From an uncultured Chloroflexia bacterium (lineage in GTDB: Bacteria; Chloroflexota; Chloroflexia; Chloroflexales; Herpetosiphonaceae), in the NCBI GenBank assembly GCA_963767035.1, contig CAVYBW010000001.1:2438547-2502546 (forward strand): a stretch of 64,000 bases of DNA, written 5' to 3'. Of this stretch, positions 1 to 64,000 are shown piece by piece; positions within the stretch are counted from its first letter, which is position 1; every line of letters begins with the position of its first letter. The notes under the pieces were generated by a model that saw only the letters and a program-made list of their open reading frames with translations, did not search any database and was not told the DNA's origin. A program made the translations under genes and the position numbers.

Positions 1-1795
1 GCAACCATTACGCGAGCCAGCATCGCTTCTGGCGATACAACGCTGCACTTATTTGCCTCCAATAACAACAATCCTGGGCCGAATCTTACGCTGATCGAAA
101 CCGATTTGAGCGATGGAGTGCATACTAATGGCTCATCGGTGATTAGCTCAGCGCCAATTACGACCACTGGCAGCTACTTTATCAAGCTTGAGGGTGGCAC
201 GCCAACCACGCTGATTGAACCTTACGATTTATATGTGCGGGTCTTGAGCACAAACGTTAGTGAGCAAGAACCAAACGACCTCGTACCACAAAGCATTACA
301 ACCCAAGCCAGCGTCAGTGGTATCCTCTCAGCAACCAATGATCTTGATCGCTACCAATTTAGCGTAAATGCTGGCGACACGATTTTTGCAACTGTTGATT
401 TTGACCCTGAGCGCGATGGCACAACCTGGAATGGCTTGCTAAGGATTGGGTTGGTCGACACGCTGTATTTCGAAGTCAATGATGGCAACAGTGTTTCGCC
501 CAATGCCGAAGCCAATGCGATGACGGTTCAGCAAGCAGGAACCTACGAAATTCAGATTGGTTCGGCGGTTGATGTTGGCTCACAAGCCAGCTATCTGGCC
601 CAAGTGCTGATTCTGCCAGCAGCAACTCAGGCCAACTGCCAAACCGTGACGAGCCAAACAGCCGCCCAAGCAATTGGCCCCAATCCCGGAATCATCCAAT
701 CAAGCATCACGGTTGAACAAGCTGCCAACATTGGCGATCTTGATGTGCTGCTTGATTTAGAGCATAGCCTCATGACCGATTTGGATGTAACCTTGACCGC
801 GCCTGATGGCAATGTGGTTGCTCTCTTCACGGATATTGGCAGCGCCCAGCGCCCTAACGTCAATCTCGTGATCGATCAGCAAGCAGCCTTGCCGCTTGGC
901 AGCTATAACAATTTGAGTGGCATTCATTATGCTCCCGAATTTAATAGTAGCCTTGATTGGTTTGCAGGCCAACAAGCCCAGGGCCAATGGACATTGACAA
1001 TCTATGATGATAGCGACCACAATGGCGGCAGCTTAAATAGTTGGGGCTTGCGGATTTGTGGCATGCCTGCGCCTGCTGATTGTCCAACTGGGATGGCGCG
1101 TAGTGTCCTGTATAGCAGTCAATTTGAGGCTGATAATGGTGGGTTTACGTCACCTGACCTGTTTGAGCAAGAATGGGTTTGGGGTAACCGCAACAGCCCA
1201 CCGATTGTCGGCGCTCATAGCGGTGAAAACAGCTGGAACACCAACTTTAACCGGCAATTATCCCAATAGCGCGCGAATGCAATTGGACTCACCTACTATC
1301 AATTTTACAAATGTTAGTGGACCAATTTATGCACGTTGGTATCAACGCTATCAACTTGGTTCTAGCATCAATGATTTTTATCTGGTAACCGCCCATAGCC
1401 CTCAACGAGTATCAACCTTATTTGAGCATCGCAGCGCAGCTATGCGCATGGAAGTTGGCAACCCAGCTCTAACGCTTGAGCAAAGCACGGGCTGGGGCTT
1501 GCAACAGCATGATCTCAGCTATTTGGCAGGCAGTATGATCTATCGGTTGCGGTGGGATTTTGGCAGCGATTCCCATGATACCTTTGCTGGCATCGCGATT
1601 GATGATGTGGAAATTACTGGCTGTATTGATGCTGGTTTGATTACCCCAACCATCACACCAACCTCAAGCACCACCCCAACGCCAAGCGTTACGCCAATAG
1701 TAACGCCAAGCATCACGCCAACGCCAAGTGCGACACCAACGATTGATCCAGCACGCTTCTACATCCATCTACCACTCGTCATAATCAATCAATAG
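1..1795 (+). CDS. Secreted multidomain protein, paralog A (5' partial). Domains: PPC (pre-peptidase C-terminal) domains, a proprotein-convertase P-domain, a C-terminal beta-sandwich domain and a Pro/Thr linker. Reading frame is interrupted near 1249.
   Basis: The frame is open from nt 1. The 'WTLTIYDDSDHNGGSLNSWGLRICG' stretch is a P-domain signature. The '[25 protein letters not shown]' stretch is a PPC-like fold. ORF 1058..1795 continues the alignment with paralog B (GPIYARWYQRYQ vs [12 protein letters not shown]) after a 1-nt shift in 'aactttaacc'. The C-terminus has a TPTPS linker. Confidence 0.6.
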
Positions 1796-1884
1796 CATCG
1801 ATGGCCCAGTGCTCCAGCCGGGGGATTCTCGGCTGGAGCAGAATCCCCCAAATTCACCCTTGTGTTTAGCTGTTAAGTCAGCCT

Positions 1885-4178
1885 ATGCTAGCCCAATCCC
1901 ACCTTCATCATTCCCTCAGCAAAAGCCTTGGTTTAGGAGGTTTGCATGCGTCTACGGATTGGGTTTATCGGCCTCAGATCGCCTTGATTGGGTTAACGGG
2001 CAGTTTTCGCGCTTTCAAGCCCGTGCAAGCAGCGCCAGCACAACCAGCCAGTACATCCAACCAAGCCAACGCTCCGCAAGGTGCAGCCCGGATCAAAGAG
2101 CAGGAGAGCAACAACACGCCAGCAACTGCGAACCAAATCATTGGTCAGTCGGGAATTGTGCGTGGCTATATTACAGCCAATGATAGTGATTTCTTTGCAA
2201 TTCCACTCAGCAGTGGTCAACGCTTAGCTGCTGGAACCATGACTTCAGCCTCAGTTGGCACCGCAGATAGTATTTTAACGCTCTACCATCCTGATGGCAC
2301 AACCGTTGTAGAGTTCGATAACGATGATGGAGGTTTTGGCTCAACGGCATCAGTGATCAGTTCGGCCATTATCACGAATACTGGCACCTATTATCTTAAG
2401 CTCACAGCCAATAACACCACCAATAAAATTTATTACTACGATCTCTACCTGCGGGTATTGACAGCGCCCAACGCCTGAGCAGAGAGCCCAATAACCCAGC
2501 TCAACTGCTGCCGGCCAGCGGCATTGTCAGCGGGGTGGTTTCAACAACTGCGGATCTTGATATCTTTCAAGTAAGCGTGAATGCTGGCGATACGATTTTT
2601 GCGACGCTCGATATGGACCCAGAACGCGATGGCATAAGCTGGAATGGCCGACTTGGCATTGGCAATTTTAATGGCGCCCCCCTGATCGTGAATGATACTA
2701 ATGCCGTTTCGCCTAATGCTGAATTCTTCCCTATGACCGTGAAAGAAGCTGGTAACTATATTATTCGGGTTGATAGCACTGTGGCAGTAAACAACGGCAG
2801 CTATATACTACAAGTGCAAATTATCCCTGCCGAGGCTCAGATCAACTGCCAAACCTATATGAGCACCGATATTAATCAGACCATTCCGGGTGGCCCCGGC
2901 ATGATTACATCCACCCTAACAATCCCCAATACTGGGTTGATTGAAGATTTGGATGTGATTGTTCAGCTGGATCACACGTTTATTCCTGACCTTGACACCC
3001 TCTTAACCGCCCCTGATGGCAATAGTATTGCCTTATTCACTGATGTTGGGGTCTCAACTGTTGCCCCAGCAACCATGAATGTGGTTATCGATGATGAAGC
3101 CGCAATTCCACTCTTATCAGGGATAACTGTTTCTGGCACGGTCTCACTACCAGAACTTTATCGTCTGAGTTGGTTCGATGGACAACGCAGCCAAGGCAAT
3201 TGGACACTCACCCTGTATGACGATGCTTCAGGCGATGGTGGCACATTAAAAAATTGGGGCCTGCGGGTTTGTGCCGCCCCACCACCAGTTGATTGCCCCG
3301 ATGGTTCAACCGTTACCACAATCTATAGCAGCGATTTCGAATCAAGCAATGGCGGCTTTACCCATGCTGGCACAAATGATTCATGGCAATATGGCCAACC
3401 AAATTTTGCGCCAATTGTTGGAAGCTATAGTGGTCTCAATAGCTGGAAAACCAATCTGACTGGGCCTTATTCCGCGTCAATGAGCGCCAATTTAACCTCA
3501 CCAGCAATCGATCTGAGCGGTGTGGTTGGCCCAATTCAAGTCCAATGGCAACAGCGCTATCAGTTGGATACCGCGGTGAACGATAACTATTCAGTCAGTG
3601 TGCTCGGCAATACAACCCAAACCCTTTTTGATCACCGCGACGGAATTATGCGCGAAACGGTCGGTAATCCAGTGGTCACAATTCAACAAAGTACCGGCTG
3701 GAGCCGTCAACTGCACACTATTAATGATTTTGTCGGTCAATCAATTAATCTCCAATTTCACCTTGATAGTGATGCAGCAATTCAATTAGCAGGGGTAGCA
3801 ATTGATAATGTTCAGGTTACTGGTTGTCTTTTGAATCCAACCGCAACCGCAACCGCAACTGCAACTGCAACCAACACGCCAACTGCGACCGCAACCGCAA
3901 CCAACACGCCAACCACGACCAATACACCGATTGTCAGCGATACCCCAACCAACACGCCAACTGCGACCGCAACCGCAACCAATACGCCAACAATTACGGT
4001 TACACCGACCAATACTAATACGCCAACAATTACGGCGACACCCAGCAATACGCCAACCAATACCAATACACCAACGATCACAATCACACCAAGCCATACC
4101 CCAACGGCTACGCCAAGCGTAACCCCGGGGCCAACCCTGATTCCGGTCTATCTGCCGTGGGTTGGAAAAGATGCTTAA
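1885..4178 (+). CDS. Secreted multidomain protein, paralog B. Domain order: PPC, PPC, P-domain, beta-sandwich domain, long Thr/Pro/Ala linker. Frameshift near 2465, possibly a second near 1980. The start may be ATG 1946 behind RBS 'taggagg'.
   Basis: ORF 1885..2478 ends in '[12 protein letters not shown]'. The other frame continues with '[51 protein letters not shown]', which is the paralog A motif. '[25 protein letters not shown]' is the P-domain. The TATATNTPT repeats at 3830-4110 form the linker. Confidence 0.6.
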
Positions 4179-4198
4179 TCGATAACGTTCAGTGTTTG

Positions 4199-4231
4199 AT
4201 AGCCCGTGGCTGAGCCACGGGCTATTTTTTG
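4199..4231 (+). terminator. Rho-independent terminator after paralog B
   Basis: Perfect hairpin 'agcccgtggc tga gccacgggct' followed by 'attttttg'. Confidence 0.7.
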
Positions 4232-4403
4232 CCAACGCATGAGGTTGTGAAGATTTGATGTAGCCTTGGCTAAACGCTGAATGAGCAAGTTAAGTGCTTG
4301 CTCGTATTTCTCTAAACCACCATTTAGCTTACATTAGCCTGCGTTTTAGCTAAATATTGCTACAATACAAGCAGCAAGATAAACGCTCAGCTATGGAGTC
4401 GTT

Positions 4404-5510
4404 ATGACCAATACAAAACGAACCGTCGGTTTCGGCGGATTGATCATTGCCGCATTGGCGCTCTCAGGAATTGGTGGTGGTTTAGTCGGTGGCGTGGCAG
4501 GCTATCGCTTGGCCCAAGTTGATCAAACGGCGACTGCGGTTGTGGTCACTCCAACCAGTACCAATCAACAAACAATCGACAATCTCACCGCCCAACCGGT
4601 TGTTGCCAATAGCAATGATGCAGTCGTTCAAACTGTTGCCAATGCCTCGCCAGCAGTGGTCAAAATCATTAGCACGGTTGCCGGTGGCCAGGCCAGTGGC
4701 TCAGGCGCAATCATCAATCAAGATGGCTATATCATCACCAATAATCACGTTGTCGAAGGCCAAAACCGCCTGCAAGTTATTTATTCCGATGGCACGAGCC
4801 ATAACGCCGAGCTAATCGGCACCGATGCCTTTTCGGATATTGCAGTGATTCGGGTGCTCGATGCGGTGCCAGCCACAATTTCCTTGGGCAATTCGGATGA
4901 GCTACAGCCAGGCGAAACTGTGGTAGCGATTGGTAGCCCGCTTGGGAAGTTCCAAAATAGCGTTACGGTTGGGGTGGTGAGCGCACTCGACCGCACAATC
5001 GATCGTATGGAAGGCTTGATTCAAACCGATGCCGCGATTAACCATGGCAATAGTGGCGGCCCGTTGATTAATCTCAAAGGCGAAATTGTTGGCATCAATA
5101 CCTTAGTTGTGCGTGGCGATGTTGGCAGTTTGGATGAAGCTCAAGGCTTGGGCTTTGCCGTACCCTCGAATATTGTGCGTGAAGTGAGCGATACCTTGAT
5201 TGCCAATGGTCAGGTCGTGCGGCCATACATGGGCATTAGCTACGAATTACTTTCGCCCGAAACCGCCGAACTGGGCATTCCCAGCGATAAAGGTGCGTTT
5301 GTTACCAATGTTGATGAAGGAACACCAGCCCGCCGGGCAGGCATTAGCCGTGGCGATATTATTCTCTCAGTCAATGGCGAGCAAATTACCCAACGCCACT
5401 CGTTGCAACGCCTGTTGTTACAATATAAGCCCGGCGATACGGTTACGGTCGCGATTGAACGCAACGGCCAGCAACAAGAGGTGCAAATTACTCTGACTGA
5501 ACGCCCATAA
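4404..5510 (+). CDS. htrA: HtrA/DegP-family serine protease with C-terminal PDZ domain and N-terminal membrane anchor
   Basis: Catalytic triad motifs 'TNNHVV', 'DIAVIRV' and 'GNSGGPLIN'. The PDZ region is 'RRAGISRGDIILSVNGEQI'. The N-terminus has a TM segment. Confidence 0.85.
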   Translation: MTNTKRTVGFGGLIIAALALSGIGGGLVGGVAGYRLAQVDQTATAVVVTPTSTNQQTIDNLTAQPVVANSNDAVVQTVANASPAVVKIISTVAGGQASGSGAIINQDGYIITNNHVVEGQNRLQVIYSDGTSHNAELIGTDAFSDIAVIRVLDAVPATISLGNSDELQPGETVVAIGSPLGKFQNSVTVGVVSALDRTIDRMEGLIQTDAAINHGNSGGPLINLKGEIVGINTLVVRGDVGSLDEAQGLGFAVPSNIVREVSDTLIANGQVVRPYMGISYELLSPETAELGIPSDKGAFVTNVDEGTPARRAGISRGDIILSVNGEQITQRHSLQRLLLQYKPGDTVTVAIERNGQQQEVQITLTERP

Positions 5511-5535
5511 TCAACCAAATTAATACTCCTCAACC

Positions 5536-5567
5536 AAGCCCTTCGTCAAGCAACGAAGGGCTTTTTG
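5536..5567 (+). terminator. Rho-independent terminator after htrA
   Basis: 'agcccttcg tcaagcaa cgaagggct' followed by 'ttttgg'. Confidence 0.7.
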
Positions 5568-5571
5568 GTGC

Positions 5572-6554
5572 TTACGATTCAATCATTGCAGGTTCTTGCA
5601 GTTCCAAATGCAAATTGGCTGCATCAAGCCTCGCTTGGATGCCTATTGGCAATGGCAGCATCGCTTGATTGTGACCAAAATCAACCTCTGCCAGAATTGG
5701 AAAATCGTAATCGGCCAACACTGCAAGAATCGCCTCGCGTGGCGTTGGATCAGTCGCACTCTCACCAAAATATTGATTAATCCAAATCAATTTGCCAATA
5801 ACCATCCCACTAATCTGATCAAGCACACCTAAAGGTTAAGCCGTGTGAGATCAATCGTCAGATCATACAGCGTCGTTCCAAGTTCTTCCCAAAAAAAGAT
5901 TGCTCCCTCAAACCACGCTGGTTTAGGCCAATAACGCGTTCCAGCAAGCGCAACCAGTCGTTTGAGATTGCCGCCGATCAAGCGCCCGGTCGTTACCCCT
6001 GGCCGCCAGCATTCCCACTCACTCAAGCGCGGCAATTGGCCTAATGGATCGCTACGCAACAGCAGTTGGCGATAGAGATTGGTCAAGCGATCATGCTGTT
6101 CTGGCTTAAGTTTGGCCCAATAATGCCCAAAGCCATCCTTGAGATCGTTGGTATGCAAGCCACTATGGCCGCATTGAGCCAAAATTGCCCACTGATAGAG
6201 GGTTGTATCGCTCATGCCGAGAAATGGCTTAGGATTGGCCGCAATCAGTTGATAATCGAGATAATCCAGCACGGTGAGCGCCGAGAATCCACCAGTCAGG
6301 GCAATAATTGCCCGCACCGCCGGATTGGCGAACATGGCGTTAATATCGGCGGCCTGTTGTTGCGGTGTGCCAGCCGACCACCAACGACGGGTTTCAATGG
6401 TTTTCCCTTCGAGCAACTCGAAGCCCAACATGCGCAAGGTTGCGCTTCCAGCCGCATAGTCTTCTTGCCAATCGTCAAAGAGTGGTAACGACGATGCAAC
6501 GACACCAATTGTATCGCCAGGTTTGAGGCAATGTGGTTTGATCAACAATGGCAT
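5572..6554 (-). CDS. LD-carboxypeptidase (peptidase S66, LdcA/MccF family). Frameshift near 5826-5832 splits it into ORFs 5829..6554 and 5572..5826.
   Basis: N-terminal 'LKPGDTIGVVASS' is the S66 signature. The downstream ORF carries the conserved C-terminal 'GHNQAMLPLPIGIQARLDA'. The two pieces are in different frames and abut at 5826/5829. Confidence 0.7.
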
Positions 6555-6693
6555 GTGTATTCCTTTATAGAATCAACCCAACCAATGTAGCAATCATTGC
6601 TTGGCTTGGCATTGGCCAAACGATGGATTTATGGCATAGCACTTGCCCTTTACAAACGGTTTAGAATGACAGACGAAATGTAGCCCTGAAGGA

Positions 6694-7089
6694 GTGTGTA
6701 GAATGCGCCGTTGGTTTTTAGCTCTGAGTCTTTTGCTGCTGCTCGCTAGCTGCTCAACCAGTAGCATCGCTACCCAAGTTTCCGATACGGTTCAACAATT
6801 AAGTGAAACATCAGTCCAAGATTTGGTTAATCGTTTATCGGGCATCGAAGAGGCAGTGCGCAACAACGATTGGGAGCAAACCCGCGCCTTGTTTAGCACC
6901 GTCGAGCAAGGCTGGAATGCCTTACGCGTGCCAGTCGAGGCGGCTTTTCCCGACATTGCCAACAATATCCAAGCGCAAATTGATCGCTTAAGCCAAGCCT
7001 TGAGTGTCGAGCTACCAAGCTCCGATGAAGTTCGGGCTGGTTTATCCGATCTGCGCGATCAATTAGTGGCCTTATTACAAGCACTGTAG
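6694..7089 (+). CDS. Small lipoprotein, hypothetical
   Basis: Lipobox 'LLLASCS'. RBS 'gaaggag' lies upstream. No recognisable catalytic motif. Confidence 0.5.
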   Translation: MCRMRRWFLALSLLLLLASCSTSSIATQVSDTVQQLSETSVQDLVNRLSGIEEAVRNNDWEQTRALFSTVEQGWNALRVPVEAAFPDIANNIQAQIDRLSQALSVELPSSDEVRAGLSDLRDQLVALLQAL

Positions 7090-7150
7090 AGCTAGTTTTT
7101 GGCCTAAATTGTGGTATGCTTTTTGAGGCTTCCAGCATAGAGGAACCGGT

Positions 7151-7804
7151 GTGAGTGAATTTCAGCAGGCCTTGGCGTATGCGCTTGAGCCGCGCAATTT
7201 AGCGCGATTAAGTGCAGCTCTCAGTCGGCATGGGCAGCTTGTTGCCAGTGCGATGGCGATTGCACTGCTGCTTGGCTTACCTATAGGTTGGTTGAGTAGC
7301 CGCTCACGCCTGATTAGCGCAATCGCGATCAATACCACCAATGTGCTGCGGGTTATCCCGAGCCTTGCGATTCTGTTTCTGTTTGTTGCTATTCCTGGCT
7401 ATGGCCTGAGCATTCGTTCAGCAATTGTGGCGCTCACCATTTTGGCCTTGCCACCAATTTTAATCAATACCAATGCTGCTTTTCGCACGCTCAACCCAGC
7501 GGTGCGCGAGGCGGCTAAAGCCATGGGCATGCCCGCATGGCTCCAATTATGGCGGGTCGAATTGCCCTTAGCTGCGCCAGTGATCTTATCGGGCATTCGC
7601 ATCGCCTTAGTCGAGGTGATTGCCAGCGCAACCTTAGCCGCATTTATTGGGGCGGGTGGCTTAGGCAGTTTTATCACCTTAGGATTTAGTATGAGCCGCG
7701 TCGATATTTTGCTTGTTGGCGCTATTCCGGTGGCTTTGCTGGCCATAGTGGCCGAAATCGTAATGGCAGGGCTGTTGCGATGGGTGCAACCACCACAGTT
7801 TTAG
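7151..7804 (+). CDS. ABC transporter permease (osmoprotectant/glycine betaine type, OpuCB-like)
   Basis: Six TM segments and an EAA-like loop ('AAKAMGMPAWLQLWRVELPLA'). It heads a four-gene opu-like operon. Confidence 0.75.
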   Translation: MSEFQQALAYALEPRNLARLSAALSRHGQLVASAMAIALLLGLPIGWLSSRSRLISAIAINTTNVLRVIPSLAILFLFVAIPGYGLSIRSAIVALTILALPPILINTNAAFRTLNPAVREAAKAMGMPAWLQLWRVELPLAAPVILSGIRIALVEVIASATLAAFIGAGGLGSFITLGFSMSRVDILLVGAIPVALLAIVAEIVMAGLLRWVQPPQF

Positions 7805-7825
7805 TTTGTTTGGACAGGAGGATTC

Positions 7826-8764
7826 ATGCGACGTTTTATTCAGCTAACGGTGTTGCTCACGCTCTTGATGACGATTTTAGCTGCTTGTGGTGATGATACA
7901 GCCGTCACCAGCGTGCCAAGCGGCAGCAATACCCCCGTGCCGAGCAGCAATCAAGTAATTCGGATTGCCTCAAAGAATTTTACCGAGCAATTTATTGTTG
8001 GCGAAATGTATGCTTTGCTCTTAGAACAAGCAGGCTACAAAGTTGAACGCAAAATTGGCTTAGGTGCAACCGATGTTGCTCAAGCCGCAATGGAAAAAGG
8101 CGAAATCGATATTTATCCCGAGTACACTGGCACTGGTTTGTTGACGGTGCTCAAATTGCCAACCCAAACCGATCCCAAAGCCGTCTATGAAACGGTCAAA
8201 AAAGGCTATGCCGAAAAATATCAAATTGCATGGCTCGACCCAGCGCCAATGAACAATACCCAAGCCTTGGCCATGACTAAAGAAGGGGCACAAAAATTTG
8301 GCATTATCACAATTTCTGATATGGCTGCCAAAGCTGGCGAATTACGCATGATCGGCCCACCCGAGTTCCAAGAACGCGAAGATGGTTTGCCAGGCATTCA
8401 AGCCAAATATGGCAACTTCGAGTTAAAAGAATATGTGCCAGTCGATCCAGGCCTCAAGTACAAAGGTTTGGTCGAGGGCAATGCCGATGTGGTCGTGGCG
8501 TTTGGCACCGACGGTGAAATTGCCAATTATGGCTTGGTCGTGCTCAAAGACGATCGCGCCATGTTCCCACCATACCAAATTGCACCGTTGGTTCGCCAAA
8601 GTGTCTTGGATGCCAACCCCAAATTGGCCGAATTGCTCAATGCCTTGGCCCCAAAACTCGATGATGCAACCATGCAACAACTCAATTTCGAAGTCAGTGG
8701 CAATAATCGCAAATACGAAGATGTAGCCAAAGAGTTCTTAACCGCTCAAGGCTTATTAAAGTAG
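7826..8764 (+). CDS. Glycine betaine/osmoprotectant substrate-binding lipoprotein (OpuAC/OpuCC family)
   Basis: Lipobox 'LAACGDD'. The sequence is typical of OpuAC-fold SBPs. It sits between permease and ATPase genes. Confidence 0.75.
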   Translation: MRRFIQLTVLLTLLMTILAACGDDTAVTSVPSGSNTPVPSSNQVIRIASKNFTEQFIVGEMYALLLEQAGYKVERKIGLGATDVAQAAMEKGEIDIYPEYTGTGLLTVLKLPTQTDPKAVYETVKKGYAEKYQIAWLDPAPMNNTQALAMTKEGAQKFGIITISDMAAKAGELRMIGPPEFQEREDGLPGIQAKYGNFELKEYVPVDPGLKYKGLVEGNADVVVAFGTDGEIANYGLVVLKDDRAMFPPYQIAPLVRQSVLDANPKLAELLNALAPKLDDATMQQLNFEVSGNNRKYEDVAKEFLTAQGLLK

Positions 8765-8782
8765 GTTTTCAAGCGAATTGGC

Positions 8783-8958: not shown

Positions 8959-9932
8959 GTGAGCACTATCGAGTTTCAGAATGTCCGCAAAAGTTATCCC
9001 AAAGCCACAACTGCGGCGCTCGCCGATATTTCACTGACGATCAATCGCGGCGAATTTGTGATTTTACTTGGGCCATCAGGCTGTGGCAAAACCACCTTGA
9101 TGAAGATGATCAATCGCTTGATTGAACCAAGTAGTGGCACGATTTTGCTCGATGGGGTCGATATTCAAACCGTCAATGCCACCAAGTTACGCCAGCAAAT
9201 TGGCTATGTTATCCAGCAAGTTGGCTTGTTCCCCACATGACGGTCGCCGAAAATATTGCGGTCGTGCCCAAATTGCTTGGCTGGCCCAAAGCTAAAATCC
9301 AAAGCCGCATCGACGAACTACTCAACCTGATTCAACTTGACCCAGACCAATTTCGCCAACGCTACCCGGCCCAAATCTCCGGTGGCCAAGCCCAACGGGT
9401 TGGTTTAGCCCGCGCATTGGCAGCCGATCCCGGCGTGATGTTGATGGATGAGCCATTTGGCGCAATCGATGCGATCACCCGCACCATTTTGCAAGATGAG
9501 ATGTTGCGTATTCAACAGCAATTGCATAAAACCATCGTGTTTGTAACCCACGATGTTGAAGAAGCGCTGCGCTTGGCCGATAAAATTGCAATTTTGCACG
9601 AGGGAATGATCGTGCAATACGATACGCCCTTGAATTTATTGCGCAACCCCGCTAATCAATATGTGGCCGATCTGCTAGGAGCCGATGATTTGGTGCGCCG
9701 TTTGAGTTTGATCCAAGTGCGCCATGTGCTTCAACCATTGCCCAAAAGCTATGATGCTGCGCTGGCAACGATTGAAGGTAGCCAGAATTTGCGCGAGGGA
9801 TTGAATCAATTGCTGGCTAGCAGCAGCGATCAACTGTTAGTCATCGAGCACAATCAACCAATTGGCACGCTCTCGTTAGCAGCGATTCACGCCTATCTGC
9901 ACCCTGAGGTACGCCATGAACGACATCGTTGA
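8959..9932 (+). CDS. ABC transporter ATP-binding protein (OpuCA-like, with C-terminal CBS-like region). Frameshift at 9237 splits ORFs 8959..9240 and 9237..9932.
   Basis: Walker A 'GPSGCGKTT', signature 'ISGGQAQRV', Walker B 'MLMDEPFGAID'. The break reads 'GLFPT*' then 'MTVAENI', where homologues have 'LFPHMTVAEN'. This looks like a missing C in a 'cccc' run. Confidence 0.8.
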
Positions 9933-16157: not shown

Positions 16158-17759
16158 ACCCACGTTTGCAATGGAATGGCGCTTGGCGCGAACGCACGTG
16201 GCATGAGCTTGACCAGCCATGGGATGTGATCATCATTGGCGGTGGGATTACCGGAGCAGGCTTATTGCGCGAAGCAACCCGCTCGGGCCTCAAAGCCCTG
16301 CTGCTCGAAGCACGCGATTTTGCTTGGGGCACTTCAAGCCGCTCATCAAAATTAGTTCATGGTGGGCTACGGTATTTGGCCCAAGGCCAAGTGCGGGTAA
16401 CCTATGATTCAGTGGTTGAGCGCGAACAGCTCTTAAATGAAGCGCCAGGTTTAGTCGGGCCGTTGGGCTTTTTGATTGGCCTGCCACAGGGCAAACCGCT
16501 GAAACGTTGGGTTTATCAGGCTGGATTATTGGCCTACGATGCCCTTGCGCGACGCAGCGAACAGCATTATTTGAGCATGCCCAATTTGCGATTACTTGCG
16601 CCATACCTCAACGATGCCACATTAGCGGCTGGTTTGCGCTACAGCGATGCCCAAACCGATGATGCGCGTTTGGTTTTGCGCATTTTGCGCGAAGCAGCAG
16701 CAGCAGGCGCAACGTTATTAAATTACTGCGGCAGTTACGCAATTGGTGCGTGAAGATCAGCAAGTAGTTGGGGTTGTGGTGCGAGAGCAACTCAGCCAAC
16801 GCGAGCAAACACTCAAAGCTACAGCAGTAATCAATGCTACGGGCGTTTGGGTCGATCAATTGCGTCAACAGATTCAAGCGCCAGCTAAAATGCGCCCACT
16901 GCGTGGCAGCCATTTGGTGTTTGCCCAAGCCCAATTGCCACTGACACAAGCAATCAATTTAGAGCATCCCCGCGATCGCCGCCCGGTCTTTTTTGTGCCA
17001 TGGGAAGGCGTGAGCATCGTTGGCACCACCGACCTTGATCACGAGCCAGATTTGTGGCAAGAGCCAAGTATTAGCCCCGCTGAAGTTGATTATTTATTTG
17101 AAGCAGTTCAGAAGGCGTTTCCCAGTTTGGGTTTAGGCTTGAGCGATGTGATTTCGACTTGGAGCGGCGTGCGGCCTGTGGTCGATACCGGCGCGAGCGA
17201 TCCGTCCAAGGAATCGCGAGATTATGTCTTGTGGCAAGAGCAAGGCTTATTGACGGTAACTGGCGGCAAATTAACTACCTTTCGTTTGATCGCACTTGAA
17301 GCTTTGAAGCTATTACGCCAACGCTTGCCAAAAATCAAGCTTTGGCCGCATGCACCACGGCTCAATCCGGCTCCCGCTGATTTAGCTGGCAATCTCGCAC
17401 CGTTGATTAAGCAACGTTTGTTGGGGCGCTACGCCGCCGAAGCACCGGTGATGCTGCAACAATTGCCAGCCGCTGAATTTGGATCAATTGATGGTTTGCC
17501 AAGTTTATGGGCCGAAATGCGCTGGGCAGCTCGTTGCGAAGCAGTAACCAATTTGGGTGATTTGCTGTTGCGGCGTAGTCGTTTGGGCATATTACTAGCC
17601 CATGGCGCAGCCGCCTATCACGAGCAAATTCAGGCGATCTGTGCTGAGGAGTTGGGCTGGGACGCAGCACGCTGGCAAACTGAGTGGCATAGCTATCAAG
17701 CATTAATTGCCCAGCATTATGGCTTGCCAACCAGCCGTGTTAATGCTGCTCTAATTTGA
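16154..17759 (+). CDS. glpD: FAD-dependent glycerol-3-phosphate dehydrogenase (GlpD/GlpA-like). Frameshift near 16720-16730 splits ORFs 16154..16753 and 16743..17759.
   Basis: 'DVIIIGGGITGAG' is the FAD motif and 'SSRSSKLVHGGLRYL' follows. The second ORF continues with 'VVGVVVRE...VINATGVWVD...RGSHLV'. The start ATG overlaps the AGPS stop as ATGA. Confidence 0.75.
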
Positions 17760-19256: not shown

Positions 19257-21392
19257 TTAGGCGATTTCTTCTGGCTCAAGCACTGGCAAATTCCACAATT
19301 CTTCGGGGACTTGCATATGAATCTGGGTGCCGCCCTGCTCAGGTGTGGAAATAGTCAGGCTGCCACCAATCACCATCAATAAACCGCGATGCAAACGCAA
19401 GCCACTGCCGCTGCCCGCTGAACTCGGCTGATTCGCCGCGATGCCCACGCCATCATCACAAATATCTACGACCAACCCATGTCGCCAATCGATCTGCACT
19501 TGAAGATTCAAGTGGCGGCGTGGGTCGTTGCCACGGGCATGGCGGGCAGCATTGCGCAGTGCTTCTTGCAAGGCATAGCTAATTACTTCGCCGATAAATT
19601 GCGGCGTATCAGCCAAACGAGCTTCAGCAGCAGGCGCAACCGTATATCCAACCTGATCAAAGGCATTGCCAAAATCAACCAGCACCATATCGTGCAGGGT
19701 TTGAGCCAAGCCACCTTGAGCTAAACGATAGGGCGTTGCTGGCGGCAAAGAACGAATCAGGGCTGAAAGCTTGGTATGCGCCTCGGATAAGGCCTTAATT
19801 GTTTGTTGCGCCATGGGATCGTTCGCTGAAACAGCGCTCAAATGAATCAAGGCAGCGTGAATTTGGGGCAAAACATCGTCGTGCAAGGTGCGCCGACCTT
19901 GACTACCCAACACTTTGACCTCGGCAATTCGTTGCCGCAGCACATCGCCTAACATTCGAGCCGCCCGTTCGCCCGCTAGCGCATCGGTCAAACGCGCACA
20001 GCAGGCCGCCGCAACTTCCATTAATTCTTCGCTATAAACCGCGCCGTTCTGCGGCGAACCAAGCACCAAAGCACCAGCTAAACCACGACCATCCCAGAGT
20101 GGGATGGCCCATTCAGCGCCACTTTGGGCCTTGAGCTGAATCCCTGATGTGCGGCGTTCTGATGAAATTGGCAATTGCTCAAGAATTGGAATTGGCGTTT
20201 GGCCCCAATGATAGCTGATGACTTTGGGCAAACCTGGCACTGCATCGCGTAGCAACAAACAGGCGCGTTCTGCTCGCAACACATCGCGGCTAATCGCCTC
20301 GACCAAGCCCTCGACTGAGGCCGAGAGACTAGCACCACCATCTAGCAAGCGATCTTGAAAGTGTAAACTGCCGACGAAAGGCCGTAAACGTTCCATAAAG
20401 GCCTCGTGCTCAACCCGATAGCGCCAACTTAACAAGCCATAAGCCAACGAGGCCAAGGTGGTGGCAAACAGCACAATATAAATCGAAGCCACTTCAAATG
20501 CGGCGCTAACCCCAACCATCAAAGCAAAACCACCAGCAATCGCCACCAGCCAGCGCCATTGATCGATGCGGTTCCATTGAGGTAGCGGGCGATCGGTAAA
20601 AGCCGCATAGGCGCCCATGGCTTGGCCAGCAGCACCCAAGGCCGCCGCCACCACGATCAACACCATCACATCCAATTGAAAAAGAGCTCGATCGCTCGAT
20701 CGGCCAGCCATGCTACTTCCGGCGTGCGCACCGATGAGCCTTGCGAAAAAACTACCACCGCGCCGATTAAGGCCACAATTCCGGCTAGCAAGCCAAGCAA
20801 CGATGTGCGAATCAGCCACGAACGCACCCGCAGCCACGCTTGATGCGGCAGATTATTGCGCCGACCAGGTCCAGTCAGCAAGGCATGAAATTGGCAAACT
20901 GAAACACATGATCAAGGCCAAAAGATAGCCAGCGACGATAAACGGCAAGTTGGCAACCAACCATGCTGGCACAAATTTCAAGGCCAAAATGCGGGCTTCT
21001 TGGGGCAATGGGTAAATCGCAGTCAGCACTAAGCCCAAAATCCCAATAAAAATGCCCATGGTAAACAACAGCAATTTATGAACGCGTAGGCTCTTGCCGC
21101 TCACCCCCGTATACCAGATCATCGTGGCATACCAAGCATACGGTGCGAGCAACGAAACCACGCTGATGACCCGCCACCAAAATGGTAGGCCCACATCAAC
21201 GACAGGTGGGCCACGCCCAATAATCGCCGCGTGAATCAAAAAGAACACGCCAGCCATCAGCAAGCCAGCCGCCGCCAAGCGTGGGCCACGTTCGCGCCCG
21301 CCATCAAGCGTCACGGTCATGCCCAACCATAAACAGATAATTGCATTGAAGATTGAAATTGCGAGGGCAATCGATTGCAGAATAAAAATCAT
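19257..21392 (-). CDS. Sensor histidine kinase. N-terminal multi-TM (7TMR-HK-like) domain, then GAF, HisKA and HATPase_c. Probably split by two frameshifts near 20840-20885 into ORFs 20853..21392, 20666..20881 and 19257..20837.
   Basis: C-terminal 'ICDDGVGIA...GSGLRL' is HATPase. A His-containing dimerisation helix sits around 'HDDVLPQIHAALIHL'. The 179-aa upstream ORF is entirely TM helices and a bridging ORF adds another TM helix. No response regulator is adjacent. Confidence 0.55.
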
Positions 21393-37619: not shown

Positions 37620-38460
37620 TGTAATAGCCTAAAATCTGGTCAACTTGGCGCCCATAGTGCTCACCAAAGAGCGTTAAATGAACCAAGAGCCAATACAGTT
37701 GATAGAGCGGCTGGCGCTCACGATAGTCGCTGGGTAGCGGCCATGCGGCTTGATAGGCCGCCAGAAATTGGTTGCCAAAGCCGCCAAACAAGCTGGCAAA
37801 GGCAATATCGGTTTCGCGGTCGCTATAACTAACCGCCGGATCGATCAAACATGGCTGGCCAGTGTTGGTCGTGATCACGTTGCCAGTCCACAAATCGCCA
37901 TGCACCAGGCTTGGGCGAGGCTGATGCGCCAACAATTGCTCAAGCTGATCAGCCAAACGCTGGCATTGCTGTTGCCGCTGTTTGGGCATGCGTCCAACTT
38001 GAGCGGCTAGCTCAACTTGCGGCCAAAAGCGTTGATCACGCCAAAATTCGGCCCAATTGGGGCTTAGTTGATTGGGTTGCGCCAAGGCTCCGATAAAATT
38101 CGAGCGTGAGTAACCAAAGTTTGGTCCAAACGTTTGATGTAATTGAGCTAAGCCCGCACCAAGATCACCAGCCTGATAACGCCCCTTGGCTTCGAGCCAT
38201 TCGAGCGCCAACCAGGTTTGGCTCACACCTAAAACTGCTGGTACAGCCAACGCCCCTGCCGCCGCTAAACATGCCAAGCCATCGGCTTCGGCCACAAAAA
38301 AATCATTGGCTGGTTGCTCACGCCATTTGATCAAAGCCAATTGCTGGCCGATTTGAATCTGCACAGCATGGTTGATATCGCCGCCATAGATTGACTTGAT
38401 TGGCCGAATCTTGGCGGCGAAGTGTTGCTCAAGGCTATATTAGATCTCAGCGGGCAGCAT
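37612..38460 (-). CDS. Fructosamine/ketosamine-3-kinase family protein with an in-frame TAA at codon 7. ORF finders report only 37612..38364.
   Basis: 'LVHGDLWTGNV' is the kinase motif. The upstream in-frame 'SIYGGDINHAVQIQ' matches the conserved N-terminal block. ATG at 38460 overlaps the preceding stop as TAATG. TAA lies at 38440-38442. Confidence 0.6.
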
Positions 38461-60035: not shown

Positions 60036-62614
60036 ATGTCTCGGCACTATTATGCCCGCGGGGCGATGTTGTTAGCCCTGCTAACAATGATTGGTGGTCT
60101 ATTGACCACTCAGAATGCCAAACCAACCGCCGCTGCTGCCAGTTGTGTTGTCACCTATCGCGTGCCCAATCAATGGGGCAATGGCTTCTTAGGCGATGTC
60201 AATATTCAAAATAATGGCGCTGCGATCAATAGCTGGACAGTTGGCTGGAGCTTTGCTGGCAATCAGCAAATTACCAACCTCTGGAATGGGGTTGTGACCC
60301 AAACTGGCCAAAACGTCAGTGTCAGCAACGCTGGCTGGAACGGTTTCATCGGCAGCGGTGGTGCTGTCAATGTTGGTTTCCAAGGAACCTACAGCGGAAG
60401 CAACGCCATCCCAACCGTGTTTACCTTGAATGGTGTGGTTTGTGGCGAAAACACGCCAACGCCAACCACTGGCCCAACCAACACCACGACCCCACCAACC
60501 GCAACCACGCGGCCAACCAATACCGTGGTTGTGCCAACCAACACGGCTGTGCCGCCAACCGCGACAACTCGGCCAACCAACACGGCTGTGCCGCCAACCG
60601 CGACGACTCGGCCAACCAACACGGCTGTACCGCCAACCGCAACCAATGGCCCAACCAGCACGCCACGACCAACGAGTATCCCAACGGTTGTGCCACCAAC
60701 CAGCACTCCAACCCTGCCAGGCGATGATACCTATGATCAACGCTTCTTGGAGCTGTATGCTGAATTGAAGAATCCAGCTAATGGTTACTTTAGCTCAGAA
60801 GGCGTGCCGTATCACTCAATCGAAACCTTGATTGTTGAAGCCCCTGATTATGGCCACGAAACCACATCCGAAGCCTATAGCTACTGGTTGTGGCTCGAAG
60901 CCATGTATGGCGAAGCAACTGGCAACTGGCAACCATTGGCCGATGCTTGGCGCAATATGGAAATGTACATCATTCCAACCAGCCAAGATCAACCATCGGT
61001 TGGGGCTTACAATGCCAATAGCCCAGCCACCTATGCTGGCGAATGGGAATTACCAAGCCAATATCCATCAGCCTTGCAAACCAACGTTTCAGTTGGCCAA
61101 GACCCAATTGCCGCTGAATTGCGCTCGGCCTATGGCACCAGCGATGTGTATGGCATGCACTGGTTGCTCGACGTTGATAACTGGTATGGCTATGGCCGCC
61201 GTGGCGATGGCACCAGCAAACCATCATATATCAATACCTTCCAACGGGGCGCACAAGAATCAGTTTGGGAAACCGTACCACACCCATCTTGGGAAAACTT
61301 CAACAATGGTGGCCCAAATGGCTTCTTGAATCTGTTCACTGGCGATGCTAGCTACGCTCGCCAATGGCGCTACACCAACGCCCCCGATGCCGATGCCCGC
61401 GCTGTCCAAGCGATCTATTGGGCAAAAGTGTGGGCCGACGAACAAGGTGGCTCACCGATCGTCAATGGCTTGGTAAGCAAGGCCGCTAAGATGGGCGACT
61501 ACTTGCGCTATGCCTTCTTCGACAAGTACTTCAAGCAAATTGGCTGTACTTCAACCTCGTGCCCAGCAGGCTCAGGCTACAGTAGCTCCCACTATCTGTT
61601 GTCGTGGTACTACGCTTGGGGCGGTTCGATCGGCAGTGGCGGCGCATGGTCATGGCGCATTGGCAGTAGCCACAATCACTTCGGCTACCAAAACCCAATG
61701 GCAGCCTGGATTTTGGGCAGCCAATCGGCTTTCAAGCCAGCCTCAACCAATGGTGCTCGAGACTGGAACACCAGTTTGACTCGCCAAATTGAGTTCTACA
61801 CCTGGTTGCAATCAAGCGAAGGCGCAATCGCCGGTGGCGCTACCAATAGCTGGAATGGCCGCTACGAAGCAGCTCCAGCTGGTACCAGCACCTTCTACAA
61901 TATGGCCTACGACGAAAAACCTGTGTACCACGACCCAGCAAGCAACACATGGTTTGGTTTCCAAGCTTGGTCAATGGAACGGGTCGCTGAATATTATTAC
62001 GCATCAGGCGATGTCAAAGCCAAAAACGTGCTCGACAAGTGGGTAACATGGGCTTTGGCCAACACCACCTTGACCAGCAATGGCAGCTATGAAATTCCAT
62101 CAACCTTGGCTTGGAGCGGCCAACCAGTTACCTGGAACGCCAGCAACCCAGCCACCAACACCAACTTGCACGTCACGGTCGTCGATAAAACCCAAGACGT
62201 GGGTGTTGCCGCCGCTTATGCCAAAACCTTGATGTACTACAGCGCCGCTACCAAGCGCTATGGCACCCAACACGTTGCTTCACAAACCATCGCCAAAGAA
62301 TTGATCGACCGGATGTGGACCCAGTATCGCGATGATAAGGGTGTTGCAAACCCCGAAACCCGCAAAGACTACAACCGCTTCGACGATTCAGTCTATGTTC
62401 CAAACGGCTGGACTGGCACCATGGCCAATGGTGATCCAATCAACAATTCATCAACGTTCTTGAGCATTCGCACCAAGTACGAAGATGATCCAGCCTTCCC
62501 AGCAGTGCAAGCCTACCTCAATGGTGGCCCTGCGCCAACCTTCACCTACCACCGCTTCTGGCTCAAGCCGATATCGCAATGGCTTACGCCGAATACGATC
62601 GCTTGTTCCAATAA
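60036..62614 (+). CDS. CBM2-linker-GH48 exocellulase (reducing-end cellobiohydrolase). C-terminal frameshift near 62556.
   Basis: N-terminal CBM2 '[23 protein letters not shown]'. The GH48 block '[37 protein letters not shown]' is present. After 'HRFW' the +1 frame gives the conserved end '[17 protein letters not shown]', with one G missing in 'tggg'. Confidence 0.8.
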
Positions 62615-62715
62615 GCCCTATGGATGCTCGCTAGCGCCGGCTGGCGAGCATCCGTTAATAAAGCTTAATTGCAGGACTTTTAGGCTATCCATTAAGATCT
62701 TAATAAATAGTAAAC

Positions 62716-62750
62716 TGAGGGCGGCAGTTAATCGTCTGCCCTCTTTTTCT
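62716..62750 (+). terminator. Rho-independent terminator after the GH48 gene
   Basis: 'gagggcggcag ttaatcg tctgccctc' followed by 'tttttctc'. An upstream palindrome 'ggatgctcgc...gcgagcatcc' sits at 62621-62652. Confidence 0.55.
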
Positions 62751-62773
62751 CAATTGTTCTTTTTGGAGGTTGT

Positions 62774-64000
62774 TTGATGTTTAAGCATCGTAAAATTCTA
62801 CTAATTGTGGCGTTGCTCACGCTGCTGACCGTGCCATGGTGGCAATCCAAAGCTGCGCAAGGCAATAATGTTAGTCCGTTATTGTTTCCATATAACCAAG
62901 CTTCTGGCATTAGCTACAATGTGACCGATCTCACGCAGGCTTGGAACGAGTGGAAAAGTAATCTTATCACTGCCAATAACGCTGGCGGCGGCAATCGCCT
63001 ACGCGTCCTTGGTGGGGTCGATAGCTCTTCAACTGTCTCCGAAGGCCAAGGTTATGGCATTCTGTTTGCCTCGATTTTCGATGACCAAACCACGCTTGAT
63101 GGTTTGTGGTTGTTCACTCGCGATCACCTCGACCCCAATGGCTTGATGCACTGGCACATTGGCAATCCCGGCCAATTGCGCGGTAGCTACGCCGCCACCG
63201 ATGGCGATGAAGATATTGCCTTAGGTCTGGTCAATGCTTGTGTTAAAAGTGCGCAAGGGCGTTTGGTCAGCCAGCAGCAATGGCCTCGATTATTGCAGCC
63301 TTGCCACCACCATGATCAACAATATTTACACCTATGAAGTTGATCATCCAGGTTCAAGCCCAATCGCTGGTTTGCCCAACAACCCCGGCAACGAATTATT
63401 GCCCGGCGATGGCTGGAATTTGACCCGCGATTATCCCGAAGGTATCGTCAATCTTTCCTATTTCTCACCTGGCTATTTCACCGTGTTTGGTAAATTCACT
63501 GGCAAATCAAGCGAATGGGAAGCAGTCAACACCCGCAATTATGAAATTACCAACCTCGCTCAATCGCGGGCTGGCAACTGCTCTAAGCTTGTGCCGAACT
63601 GGAACCAGTATGATGGCGATGCCCAGCTGGTTTCGTGGCAGCCCGAAGAATACGCCTGGTGGAGCTATGATGCCGCCCGCTTTGCATGGCGCGTCGCCGT
63701 CGATAAGGCTTGGTATAACACCGCTAGTTCACGCGAAACCATGAACGAAGTTGGTGGTTTTTTCAGCAGCGTCGGCATCGAAAATGTGCAGGCTCGCTAT
63801 CGCATGAACGGTACGTCAGTTGATAATTATCGCGGCGTGTTCTTCGTGGCCAATGCTGCTGCCGCAATTTGGGCCGCTCCCGCCGCTCAAGCAGTCAATT
63901 GTGGTGCTGCCACCGGCACGCTCAAAACCAGCCCACAACAAGCTTACAATCTGGTTTTGACCACCAAAGATGCGCCAAATTCATATTATGTCAATGCTTG
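62774..64000 (+). CDS. Secreted GH8 glycoside hydrolase (endoglucanase/chitosanase family), 3' partial, frameshift near 63265
   Basis: Signal peptide. '[13 protein letters not shown]' and '[15 protein letters not shown]' fit the GH8 PROSITE pattern. The frame-0 continuation '[26 protein letters not shown]...[12 protein letters not shown]' extends to the window end. Confidence 0.75.

What the first reader, a model, noticed from the sequence alone, without database searches (positions are those of the whole stretch)
1..64000. At least nine frame disruptions in conserved genes: indel-prone assembly or unusually pseudogene-rich region
Conserved protein alignments continue across reading-frame switches at:
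- ~1249 (paralog A)
- ~2465 (paralog B)
- ~5828 (LD-carboxypeptidase)
- 9237 (opuCA, CCCC run; LFPT* then MTVAEN where LFPHMTVAEN is expected)
- ~16725 (glpD)
- ~20840-20885 (sensor kinase, twice)
- ~62556 (GH48, GGG run)
- ~63265 (GH8)
There is also an in-frame TAA in the fructosamine kinase. That is one lesion per roughly 7 kb, several in short homopolymers. This is the signature of unpolished long-read or 454 data rather than biology. The six-frame ORF list therefore over-splits genes and creates spurious ORFs such as 63487..63744.
Basis: seen in the sequence. Interest (0 to 1): 0.55.

Follow-up and report, generated by a model that had tools for sequence, protein, structure and literature searches.

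The report
Single-base frame breaks in Herpetosiphon assembly
Nine of about fifty genes in this stretch of an environmental Herpetosiphon genome are broken by one-letter insertions or deletions (plus one stop codon), and most of these look like errors in the assembled sequence, so this is a data-quality warning and not a discovery.

Summary
The window comes from a 3.69-Mb contig of an unannotated Herpetosiphon (Chloroflexota) metagenome assembly. Comparison with Pfam profiles, orthologous proteins and syntenic DNA of relatives shows 10 definite 1-nt indels, one ambiguous change at the C-terminus of glpD, and one CAA->TAA nonsense codon. These fall in 9 of about 50 genes.

Two lesions are new or moved. 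Paralog B has a second shift at 1976/1977. The second kinase shift is at 20679-20683, not about 20840.

I favour artefact (about 0.7) for four reasons:
- All orthologs in named Herpetosiphon species are intact.
- Every other coding indel against relatives is a multiple of 3.
- Broken genes show the same strong purifying selection as intact ones (dN/dS 0.025-0.14 against 0.007-0.20).
- A same-strain assembly of run ERR11593883 has the LD-carboxypeptidase intact, with one extra base.

Some points qualify this:
- The opuCA break is reproduced in that same run.
- Only 2 lesions sit in runs of 5 or more, while about 122 of 124 such coding runs are in frame.
- Three lesions are not demonstrably in homopolymers.
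- The lesions cluster (none between 20.9 and 62.5 kb; P about 3e-4).
- The fructosamine-kinase stop may be real.

Interest is low.

The parts
1245..1248 (+). Paralog A (secreted PPC / P-domain / MAM-like protein, 1-1795; its N-terminus lies off the window). One extra base in CTTT (C or T).
   Evidence: Intact orthologs read AAT/C TTA ACN (WNTNLTG)..
1976..1977 (+). The T of ATG codon 11 is lost: CTCA^GATC against CTCATGATC in three L085 paralogs. No homopolymer is involved.
2460..2463 (+). Paralog B, second lesion. One base is missing from the Thr codon AC[N] before AGC. The frame changes from RVLT to [11 protein letters not shown].
5829..5833 (-). LD-carboxypeptidase (5572-6554). One base is missing in a T run on the gene strand (T4->T3; A3 at 5831-5833 on the + strand).
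   Evidence: Repair gives LNLLGVLDQ and a 327-aa protein. That protein aligns without gaps and is 91% identical to the H. llansteffanensis enzyme. The ERR11593883 contig has the gene intact at 327 aa and 984 nt, against 983 nt here..
9231..9234 (+). opuCA-type ABC ATPase (8959-9932). One base is missing from the Pro codon CC[N] in TTCCCCACATG. Repair gives LFPHMTVAEN and 324 aa, as in all orthologs.
   Evidence: The same 93 + 231 aa split is present in the ERR11593883 contig..
16726..16726 (+). glpD (16154-17759). One extra base in TA[C]T. Orthologs read LLNYAAVTQ. No homopolymer is involved.
   Evidence: The ERR11593883 contig ends at 16721, 5 nt upstream..
17722..17759 (+). Ambiguous C-terminal change in glpD. 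The window ends ...LPTSRVNAALI*, whereas relatives end ...LP(S/T)AAR*. The net difference is -1 nt. It could be natural variation, or a GT duplication just before the stop.
20888..20890 (-). Sensor histidine kinase (19257-21392), first shift. One extra T on the gene strand (TT->TTT): CCAATTTCATG against CCGA-TTCATG.
20679..20683 (-). Sensor histidine kinase, second shift. One T is missing (T6->T5 on the gene strand) and the original frame is restored. The 65-70 codons between the two shifts are out of frame and contain the TAA at 20853-20855.
   Evidence: Repair gives 711 aa, as in all orthologs..
38440..38442 (-). Fructosamine kinase (37612-38460). Codon 7 is TAA, where NSE202 has CAA. This is a substitution, not an indel.
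62560..62561 (+). GH48 cellulase (60036-62612 when repaired). One G is missing (GGG->GG) in TTCTGGCTCAAG. Repair gives [21 protein letters not shown]. Unrepaired, the ORF runs on to 62777.
63245..63248 (+). GH8 (62777 to beyond the window end). One extra A (AAA->AAAA). Repair gives NACVKVRKGVW. The C-terminal 448-aa fragment of the same contig continues in frame.

Best explanation
The window is part of a 3.69-Mb contig from an unannotated metagenome assembly of a Herpetosiphon species. An assembly this contiguous was almost certainly built from long reads. Nine of about 50 genes are interrupted by 10 (possibly 11) single-base insertions or deletions and one nonsense substitution.

The most likely cause of most of these is residual consensus error. 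That means local stretches where the assembler or polisher had too little or conflicting read support, for example low coverage or co-occurring strains. This leaves random 1-nt indels, preferentially but not only in short runs. The genes themselves are probably functional in the organism.

A minority may be genuine strain-specific lesions. The opuCA shift is reproduced in a second data set. The fructosamine-kinase stop is a substitution in a gene that is also broken in a relative.

Shown: the lesions, their exact positions, the intactness of orthologs, the absence of relaxed selection, one lesion contradicted and one reproduced by another assembly, and the clustering.

Inferred: the sequencing technology and the coverage or strain-mixture cause.
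For: 1. Source. All window fragments (179, 93, 231, 241, 199, 186, 84, 250 and 913 aa) are on record on a single 3,688,802-bp contig. Its sources are 'NCBI, ENA' and it carries no accession or name.
2. Direct contradiction of one lesion. The Logan assembly of ERR11593883 carries 100%-identical neighbouring proteins, but there the LD-carboxypeptidase is an intact 327-aa gene, one base longer than in the window. The repaired protein aligns without gaps to the H. llansteffanensis ortholog.
3. Orthologs are intact in H. aurantiacus, giganteus, llansteffanensis, geysericola, gulosus and NSE202: kinase 711 aa, OpuCA 324, GlpD 529, GH8 607-620, GH48 831-854. Single-base repair restores these lengths exactly or nearly: 711, 324, 528/534, 626, 859.
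4. Against syntenic DNA of relatives, covering 1-13.6, 6.6-42.4 and 44.5-64 kb, the only coding indels that are not multiples of 3 are the lesions.
5. dN/dS of lesion genes is 0.025-0.138, inside the range of 40 intact genes (0.007-0.20). The out-of-frame kinase segment is also conserved in the repaired frame.
6. Density. 9 of 50 genes are hit here. In the same region NSE202 has one, and the Logan and JGI relatives have none.
7. Clustering. There are no indel lesions between 20,890 and 62,560 (P about 3e-4 per lesion, 1.5e-3 per gene). This fits locally poor consensus better than gene-by-gene decay.
8. 7 of 10 indels are in runs of 3 or more, against 16% of bases overall (P about 1e-3).
9. One ERR11593883 contig ends 5 nt from the glpD lesion. 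This suggests reads disagree at that point.
10. Low-coverage Nanopore MAGs are documented to retain gene-fragmenting indels unless polished (PMC9262707).
Against: - The opuCA split (93 + 231 aa) is identical in the ERR11593883 contig. Either it is real, or that run shares the same systematic error.
- About 122 of 124 coding homopolymers of 5 nt or more, and 34 of 35 of 6 nt or more, are in frame. This is not the classic unpolished homopolymer signature.
- Three indels (1976/1977, 2462/2463, 16726) are not demonstrably in homopolymers.
- All affected genes are accessory. DnaK, HtpG and Pth are intact, although only about 0.7 hits would be expected in them.
- The nonsense codon is a C->T transition, and the same gene carries an independent 2-nt deletion in NSE202.
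- The platform of the source assembly and of ERR11593883 could not be established. ERR11593883 may not be independent of the assembly.
Confidence: 0.7

Rival explanations
1. Genuine, very recent gene inactivation or segregating frameshift polymorphisms. In this reading the strain really carries most of these indels, for example after loss of mismatch repair, which raises 1-nt indels in short runs. The assembly then reports them faithfully.
For: - The opuCA lesion is present with identical fragment lengths in a second assembly, ERR11593883.
- Only accessory genes are hit.
- Fructosamine kinase is independently disrupted in isolate NSE202, so at least that gene is dispensable in the genus.
- Long homopolymers are almost all correct, which argues against gross sequencing error.
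Against: - The LD-carboxypeptidase is intact in ERR11593883, although the flanking proteins there are identical to the window's.
- There is no elevation of dN/dS in any lesion gene.
- There are no larger deletions, IS insertions or other signs of decay. Every lesion but one is exactly 1 nt.
- 18% of genes broken is far above what the six relatives show.
- The lesions cluster by position and not by function.
- Two lesions in one gene, as in the kinase and paralog B, would be expected of old pseudogenes. Yet these genes are under strong constraint.
Confidence: 0.2
2. Collapsed strain heterogeneity. Two or more closely related Herpetosiphon strains co-occur in the sample. The consensus switches between them or mis-resolves indel differences, which creates frameshifts found in neither strain. 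This is a specific form of the artefact explanation.
For: - ERR11593883 contigs of this organism are short (2-6 kb) even though their proteins are 100% identical to the window's.
- One contig starts exactly at 14529, the position of a 12-nt indel relative to NSE202.
- Another contig ends 5 nt before the glpD lesion.
- One lesion agrees between the two assemblies and one disagrees.
- Lesions are clustered by region.
Against: - Other contig ends fall in a repeated C/T-rich intergenic element, so those breaks need no strain variation.
- No direct read-level evidence is available.
- All looked-up proteins were identical, so no second haplotype was actually seen.
Confidence: 0.25
3. Functional recoding: programmed ribosomal frameshifting, transcriptional slippage, or phase-variable contingency loci.
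For: A -1 slip on CCCC in opuCA would recreate exactly LFPHMTV. That lesion is reproducible.
Against: - Orthologs in all named Herpetosiphon species are single uninterrupted ORFs.
- The contexts are heterogeneous and share no slippery motif.
- The runs are short (2-6 nt), unlike contingency tracts.
- The kinase would need two opposite shifts and reads through a TAA in between.
- There are ten such sites in 64 kb.
Confidence: 0.02

Closest known systems
Gene-fragmenting indel errors in long-read (Nanopore or PacBio) assemblies and MAGs, as measured by IDEEL-type length-ratio tests (PMC9262707; also PMC12007338, PMC8103633)
   Same: - Single-base indels split otherwise conserved genes into adjacent ORFs.
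- They are enriched in homopolymer runs.
- They occur in a highly contiguous metagenome-derived contig.
- Orthologs elsewhere are full length.
- At least one site is not reproduced by another assembly of the same strain.
   Different: - Long homopolymers (5 nt or more) are almost all correct.
- Several errors lie outside homopolymers.
- Insertions and deletions are mixed.
- The errors are confined to two sub-regions of the window.
- One site is reproduced in a second data set.
- The sequencing platform was not verifiable here.
Recent pseudogenes in bacteria under relaxed selection, for example host-restricted symbionts or mismatch-repair-deficient lineages
   Same: About 18% of genes carry inactivating lesions. 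The lesions are small frameshifts plus a nonsense codon, and they fall in accessory genes.
   Different: - There is no relaxed dN/dS.
- There are no large deletions and no IS expansion.
- The organism belongs to a free-living genus with large genomes, in which relatives have the same genes intact.
- One lesion is absent from same-strain data.
Homopolymer-tract phase variation (contingency loci; PMC8808543 describes the phenomenon and its confusion with sequencing error)
   Same: Length changes of +1 or -1 in mononucleotide runs switch genes out of frame.
   Different: The tracts here are 2-6 nt, where contingency loci have 7 or more. They lie at arbitrary positions inside housekeeping-type enzymes and are not conserved as tracts in relatives.

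Membership tests
Long-read assembly consensus indel artefact | Single-base indels that split ORFs whose orthologs are uninterrupted | tested here: met
   There are 10 one-nt indels in 8 genes. Orthologs are intact in 6 named Herpetosiphon species and 3 metagenomic relatives.
Long-read assembly consensus indel artefact | Enrichment in homopolymers, especially long ones | tested here: inconclusive
   7 of 10 indels are in runs of 3 or more (P about 1e-3). But only 2 are in runs of 5 or more, while about 122 of 124 such coding runs are in frame. Three are not demonstrably in homopolymers.
Long-read assembly consensus indel artefact | Not reproduced by independent accurate reads of the same strain | tested here: inconclusive
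   Only two sites could be tested through the gene tables of ERR11593883 contigs. The LD-carboxypeptidase lesion is not reproduced and the opuCA lesion is. The platform and independence of that run are unknown. Its DNA was not retrievable.
Long-read assembly consensus indel artefact | The assembly derives from error-prone long reads at low coverage or without polishing | not testable with these tools
   The only indication is indirect: a 3.69-Mb contig of an unannotated ENA/NCBI record. No run metadata or coverage are available.
Genuine pseudogenes / genome decay | Relaxed selective constraint on the disrupted genes | tested here: not met
   dN/dS is 0.025-0.138 for lesion genes and 0.007-0.20 for intact genes. 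This test cannot exclude inactivation that is very recent.
Genuine pseudogenes / genome decay | A spectrum of lesion types (larger deletions, IS insertions, multiple stops) and other signs of decay | tested here: not met
   Apart from one nonsense codon, all lesions are exactly 1 nt. All other coding indels against relatives are multiples of 3. No IS elements were seen.
Genuine pseudogenes / genome decay | The lesion is fixed in independent data from the same lineage | tested here: inconclusive
   opuCA: yes. LD-carboxypeptidase: no. The other sites were not covered by retrievable contigs.
Programmed frameshift / transcriptional slippage | The frameshift and its slippery site are conserved among orthologs | tested here: not met
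   All orthologs are single ORFs of full length.
Phase-variable contingency locus | A long mononucleotide or SSR tract (typically 7 or more units) at the switch site | tested here: not met
   The runs at the lesions are 1-6 nt.

The most novel reading that the evidence does not exclude
Most of the indels are real and mark a wild Herpetosiphon lineage that recently went through a burst of single-base indel mutation. Candidates are loss of mismatch repair or a local error-prone repair or recombination tract. Such a burst would have inactivated nearly one gene in three across a 21-kb stretch while neighbouring DNA stayed clean.
Probability: 0.08. Interest if true: 0.45.

Novelty: not a real feature. 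Interest (0 to 1): 0.1.

Why it matters
The finding matters mainly for how the data are handled. Gene calls, domain counts, pseudogene statistics and metabolic reconstructions from this contig will be wrong unless a frameshift-aware caller or polishing is used. Several short ORFs, such as 63487-63744 and the split fragments, are spurious.

The analysis also shows that 'homopolymer error' is too simple a label here. Errors or variants are regionally clustered, and one is reproducible, so individual lesions (opuCA, fructosamine kinase) should not be dismissed without reads. If the lesions were real, they would indicate an unusual local mutational burst in a free-living predator. The evidence does not favour that.

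Tried and rejected
- A genome-contig scan with the FAD oxidase returned only relatives at 62% identity or less (other Chloroflexota, Proteobacteria). It gave no usable synteny. The organism was identified later from cluster membership.
- Exact look-up of nine single-base-repaired proteins found none in the collection. The positive control, the 327-aa LD-carboxypeptidase known to exist in ERR11593883, was also absent, so the test says nothing.
- Look-ups of GH9 with two alternative starts, and of the kinase N-fragment, found nothing. This is uninformative.
- DNA of the ERR11593883 contigs could not be retrieved because the file is too large. Only gene tables were usable.
- I searched the paper library for ERR11593883 and for Herpetosiphon long-read MAGs, to learn the platform. 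Nothing relevant came up.
- I tested whether lesions associate with GATC sites, as a possible methylation-linked basecalling error. Two of 12 lie within 6 nt, which is not significant (P = 0.14).
- Rfam and tRNA scans of the window found nothing.
- I considered programmed frameshifting and phase variation. I rejected both because orthologs are uninterrupted and the tracts are short.
- Several apparent non-3n indels against relatives turned out not to be lesions. Those at 12175, 27109, 28985, 49195/49215 and 55713/55736 lie upstream of the true start codons or inside spurious ORFs. The one at 37610 lies at the junction of two gene ends.

Full report
**What the window is.** The GC content is about 0.50. 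Pfam annotation of the major ORFs gives these genes:
- two tandem secreted PPC / P-domain / MAM-like paralogs
- HtrA
- an LD-carboxypeptidase
- an opuC-type ABC operon
- a FadR-like regulator with an FAD oxidase and glpD
- a glycosyltransferase
- a membrane sensor kinase
- a GH26 mannanase
- HtpG and DnaK
- a fructosamine kinase
- Pth
- a low-GC restriction-modification island
- a GH116 enzyme with a sugar ABC system
- a GH9-GH48-GH8 cellulase cluster

Exact look-ups place every protein fragment of the window on one 3,688,802-bp contig. That contig is held by 'NCBI, ENA' without accession or name. The fragments sit in 90% clusters whose named members are all Herpetosiphon: H. aurantiacus, giganteus, llansteffanensis, geysericola, gulosus and sp. 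NSE202. The window is therefore from an unannotated, highly contiguous Herpetosiphon metagenome assembly. That it was built from long reads is an inference from contiguity; I could not verify it.

**Checking the observation.** Pfam profile coverage is split across adjacent ORFs for several genes:
- LD-carboxypeptidase (S66C positions 1-50 | 55-120), opuCA (ABC_tran 1-72 | 75-136) and glpD (DAO 1-170 | 179-351).
- GH48 stops at profile position 604 of 619, and GH8 covers only 25-135 of 341.
- Paralog B aligns to paralog A in frame 1 up to nt 1248 and in frame 2 from nt 1247. Paralog A aligns to B across 2463-2481 with a frame change.

For the kinase I searched a read-through translation. The best hits were 711-aa proteins, 87% identical over 100% of the query. 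Their sequences show that the window leaves the frame after ...CFSLPI and returns at QLDVMV....

**Exact positions from relatives' DNA.** I obtained syntenic DNA from five sources:
- three Logan contigs with the kinase (L081-L083)
- a 29.5-kb Logan contig covering the cellulase cluster (L084)
- a 524-kb JGI contig (L085)
- three 22-kb loci of Herpetosiphon sp. NSE202, GCA_042688385.1 (L165-L167)

Together these cover window 1-13.6 kb, 6.6-42.4 kb and 44.5-64 kb at 79-91% nucleotide identity. Listing every alignment gap gives the census below.

| Gene | Position | Change |
|---|---|---|
| Paralog A | 1245-1248 | +1 |
| Paralog B | between 1976 and 1977 | -1: T of ATG codon 11, CTCA^GATC against CTCATGATC. 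New; |
| Paralog B | between 2462 and 2463 | -1 |
| LD-carboxypeptidase | 5831-5833 | -1 in the run |
| opuCA | CCCC 9231-9234 | -1 |
| glpD | 16726 | +1 (TA[C]T) |
| Kinase | 20888-20890 | +1 |
| Kinase | 20679-20683 | -1 |
| GH48 | 62560-62561 | -1 (GGG->GG) |
| GH8 | 63245-63248 | +1 (AAA->AAAA) |

The last four codons of glpD also differ from relatives by a net -1 nt, giving a 5-residue extension. This is ambiguous.

The fructosamine kinase has TAA at codon 7, where NSE202 has CAA.

Every other indel inside a bona fide coding region is a multiple of 3. The remaining non-3n gaps lie upstream of true start codons, at gene ends, or in spurious ORFs.

The second kinase shift is about 160 nt from where it was placed. 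The GH8 shift is about 20 nt upstream. Two lesions were missed. In total, nine of about 50 genes are affected.

**Error or biology: evidence for error.**
1. *Same-strain data.* Looking up intact window proteins by exact sequence repeatedly found short contigs (2-6 kb) in the Logan assembly of run ERR11593883, with identical neighbours. In the contig spanning window 3953-10284, the LD-carboxypeptidase is one intact 327-aa gene, 984 nt against 983 nt in the window. Inserting one T in the run reproduces a 327-aa protein. It aligns without gaps, at 91% identity, to the H. llansteffanensis enzyme. The opuCA split, however, is identical there (93 + 231 aa). Another contig ends at 16721, 5 nt before the glpD lesion. 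The chance that any of the ten observed contig ends falls that close to a lesion is a few percent.
2. *Selection.* Nei-Gojobori dN/dS on repaired frames, against NSE202, L084 and L085, is 0.025-0.138 for lesion genes. It is 0.007-0.20 for 40 intact genes. The roughly 68 out-of-frame kinase codons differ from the ortholog at only 3 residues when read in the repaired frame.
3. *Repair.* Single-base repair restores ortholog lengths.
4. *Density.* Over the same region, relatives have no lesions, or one in NSE202: a 2-nt deletion in its own fructosamine kinase.
5. *Clustering.* Eight or nine lesions lie in 1-20.9 kb, two in 62.5-63.3 kb, and no indel lies in the 41.7 kb between. Under uniformity P is about 3e-4, or 1.5e-3 counting genes. 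This pattern suits locally poor consensus better than independent gene decay.
6. *Precedent.* Low-coverage Nanopore MAGs are documented to keep gene-fragmenting indels unless polished (PMC9262707).

**Error or biology: evidence that complicates it.**
- The opuCA lesion is reproducible.
- Only two lesions are in runs of 5 or more. About 122 of 124 coding runs of 5 nt or more, and 34 of 35 of 6 nt or more, are in frame. This is not an unpolished R9 or 454-type assembly.
- Three indels are not demonstrably in homopolymers.
- Insertions and deletions are mixed, 4 to 6.
- Only accessory genes are hit, though essential genes make up only about 4 kb of the window.
- The nonsense codon is a transition, in a gene independently broken in another Herpetosiphon genome.
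- I could not learn the platform of either data set. ERR11593883 may be the very read set behind the assembly, in which case agreement at opuCA could be a shared systematic error.

**Verdict.** Most lesions are best explained as residual consensus errors or unresolved read or strain variation in a long-read metagenome assembly (about 0.7). The opuCA shift and the fructosamine-kinase stop are plausible genuine strain-specific lesions. Genuine recent inactivation of most genes remains possible (about 0.2) but fits the selection, density and clustering data poorly. Programmed frameshifting and phase variation are excluded by the uninterrupted orthologs and the short, heterogeneous contexts. The finding is a sound data-quality flag of low biological interest. 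Its practical consequence is that ORF-based annotation of this contig needs frameshift-aware calling or polishing.

**What did not work.**
- The genome-contig scan found no close relative.
- Exact look-up of repaired proteins failed its positive control.
- Several look-ups returned nothing.
- A GATC association was not significant.
- Rfam and tRNA scans were empty.
- Literature searches did not identify the run.

Noticed in passing
window 8784-8802, 24457-24475, 26844-26862, 27100-27118(-), 41297-41315, 48751-48769, 48985-49003(-): There is a repeated intergenic element, consensus TTCCCTCACCCCCAACCCCCTCTCCCAC..ACGCGGGCGAGGGG, which contains a GC-rich hairpin. It has 7 copies where 0.02 are expected by chance. 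Two inverted pairs, 240-260 nt apart, underlie the ORFs 26818-27156 and 48731-49072. Those ORFs have no Pfam match and are probably spurious; the element looks REP- or MITE-like. One Logan contig end (26870) lies beside a copy of the element, and another (17823) falls in similar C/T-rich sequence.
   Followed up: partly
window 5572-6642; L085 11163-11178; L166 54-191: The LD-carboxypeptidase gene is absent between the HtrA and lipoprotein genes in Herpetosiphon sp. NSE202 and in the JGI relative L085. A 91%-identical 327-aa ortholog exists in H. llansteffanensis. The gene is therefore a lineage-variable insertion or deletion.
   Followed up: partly
L165 7512-8358 (NSE202), aligned to window ~38317: The isolate genome Herpetosiphon sp. 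NSE202 has its own 2-nt deletion in the fructosamine kinase, which is called there as 88 + 227 aa. This gene may be genuinely decaying in the genus, or NSE202 may have an assembly error of its own.
   Followed up: partly
window 42430-44490: A low-GC (0.38) island carries a NotI-like restriction endonuclease and an N6/N4 DNA methyltransferase. In NSE202 it is replaced by four unrelated small genes, so it was probably acquired horizontally.
   Followed up: no
window 1-4178; L085 748-9771: There is a tandem family of secreted proteins with a PPC domain, a proprotein-convertase P-domain, an InhA-like MAM domain and a Thr/Pro-rich linker. Relative L085 has four intact copies of 707-724 aa. The window shows two copies, both frameshifted. 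The first is cut by the window start, so more copies may lie upstream.
   Followed up: partly
window 28731-28967: A 69-nt unit is repeated 3.4 times at 91% identity inside ORF 28560-28982. That ORF has no confident Pfam match. The repeat is also present in NSE202.
   Followed up: no
window 9192-9230: An imperfect 21-nt direct repeat, CCAGCAA(A/G)TTGGCT(A)TGTT, lies immediately upstream of the opuCA lesion. It could complicate read alignment or polishing at that site.
   Followed up: no
window 21451-21917: The intergenic region between the kinase and the GH26 mannanase is about 435-465 nt and cannot be aligned to relatives. The equivalent region is 117 nt in L081 and 274 nt unaligned in NSE202. 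The ORF 21658-22164 in it is probably spurious.
   Followed up: no
window 49223-49726: A protein carries two partial matches to the ribosomal L7/L12 C-terminal domain. It is conserved in NSE202 (167 aa). It is not the ribosomal protein itself, and its function is unknown.
   Followed up: no
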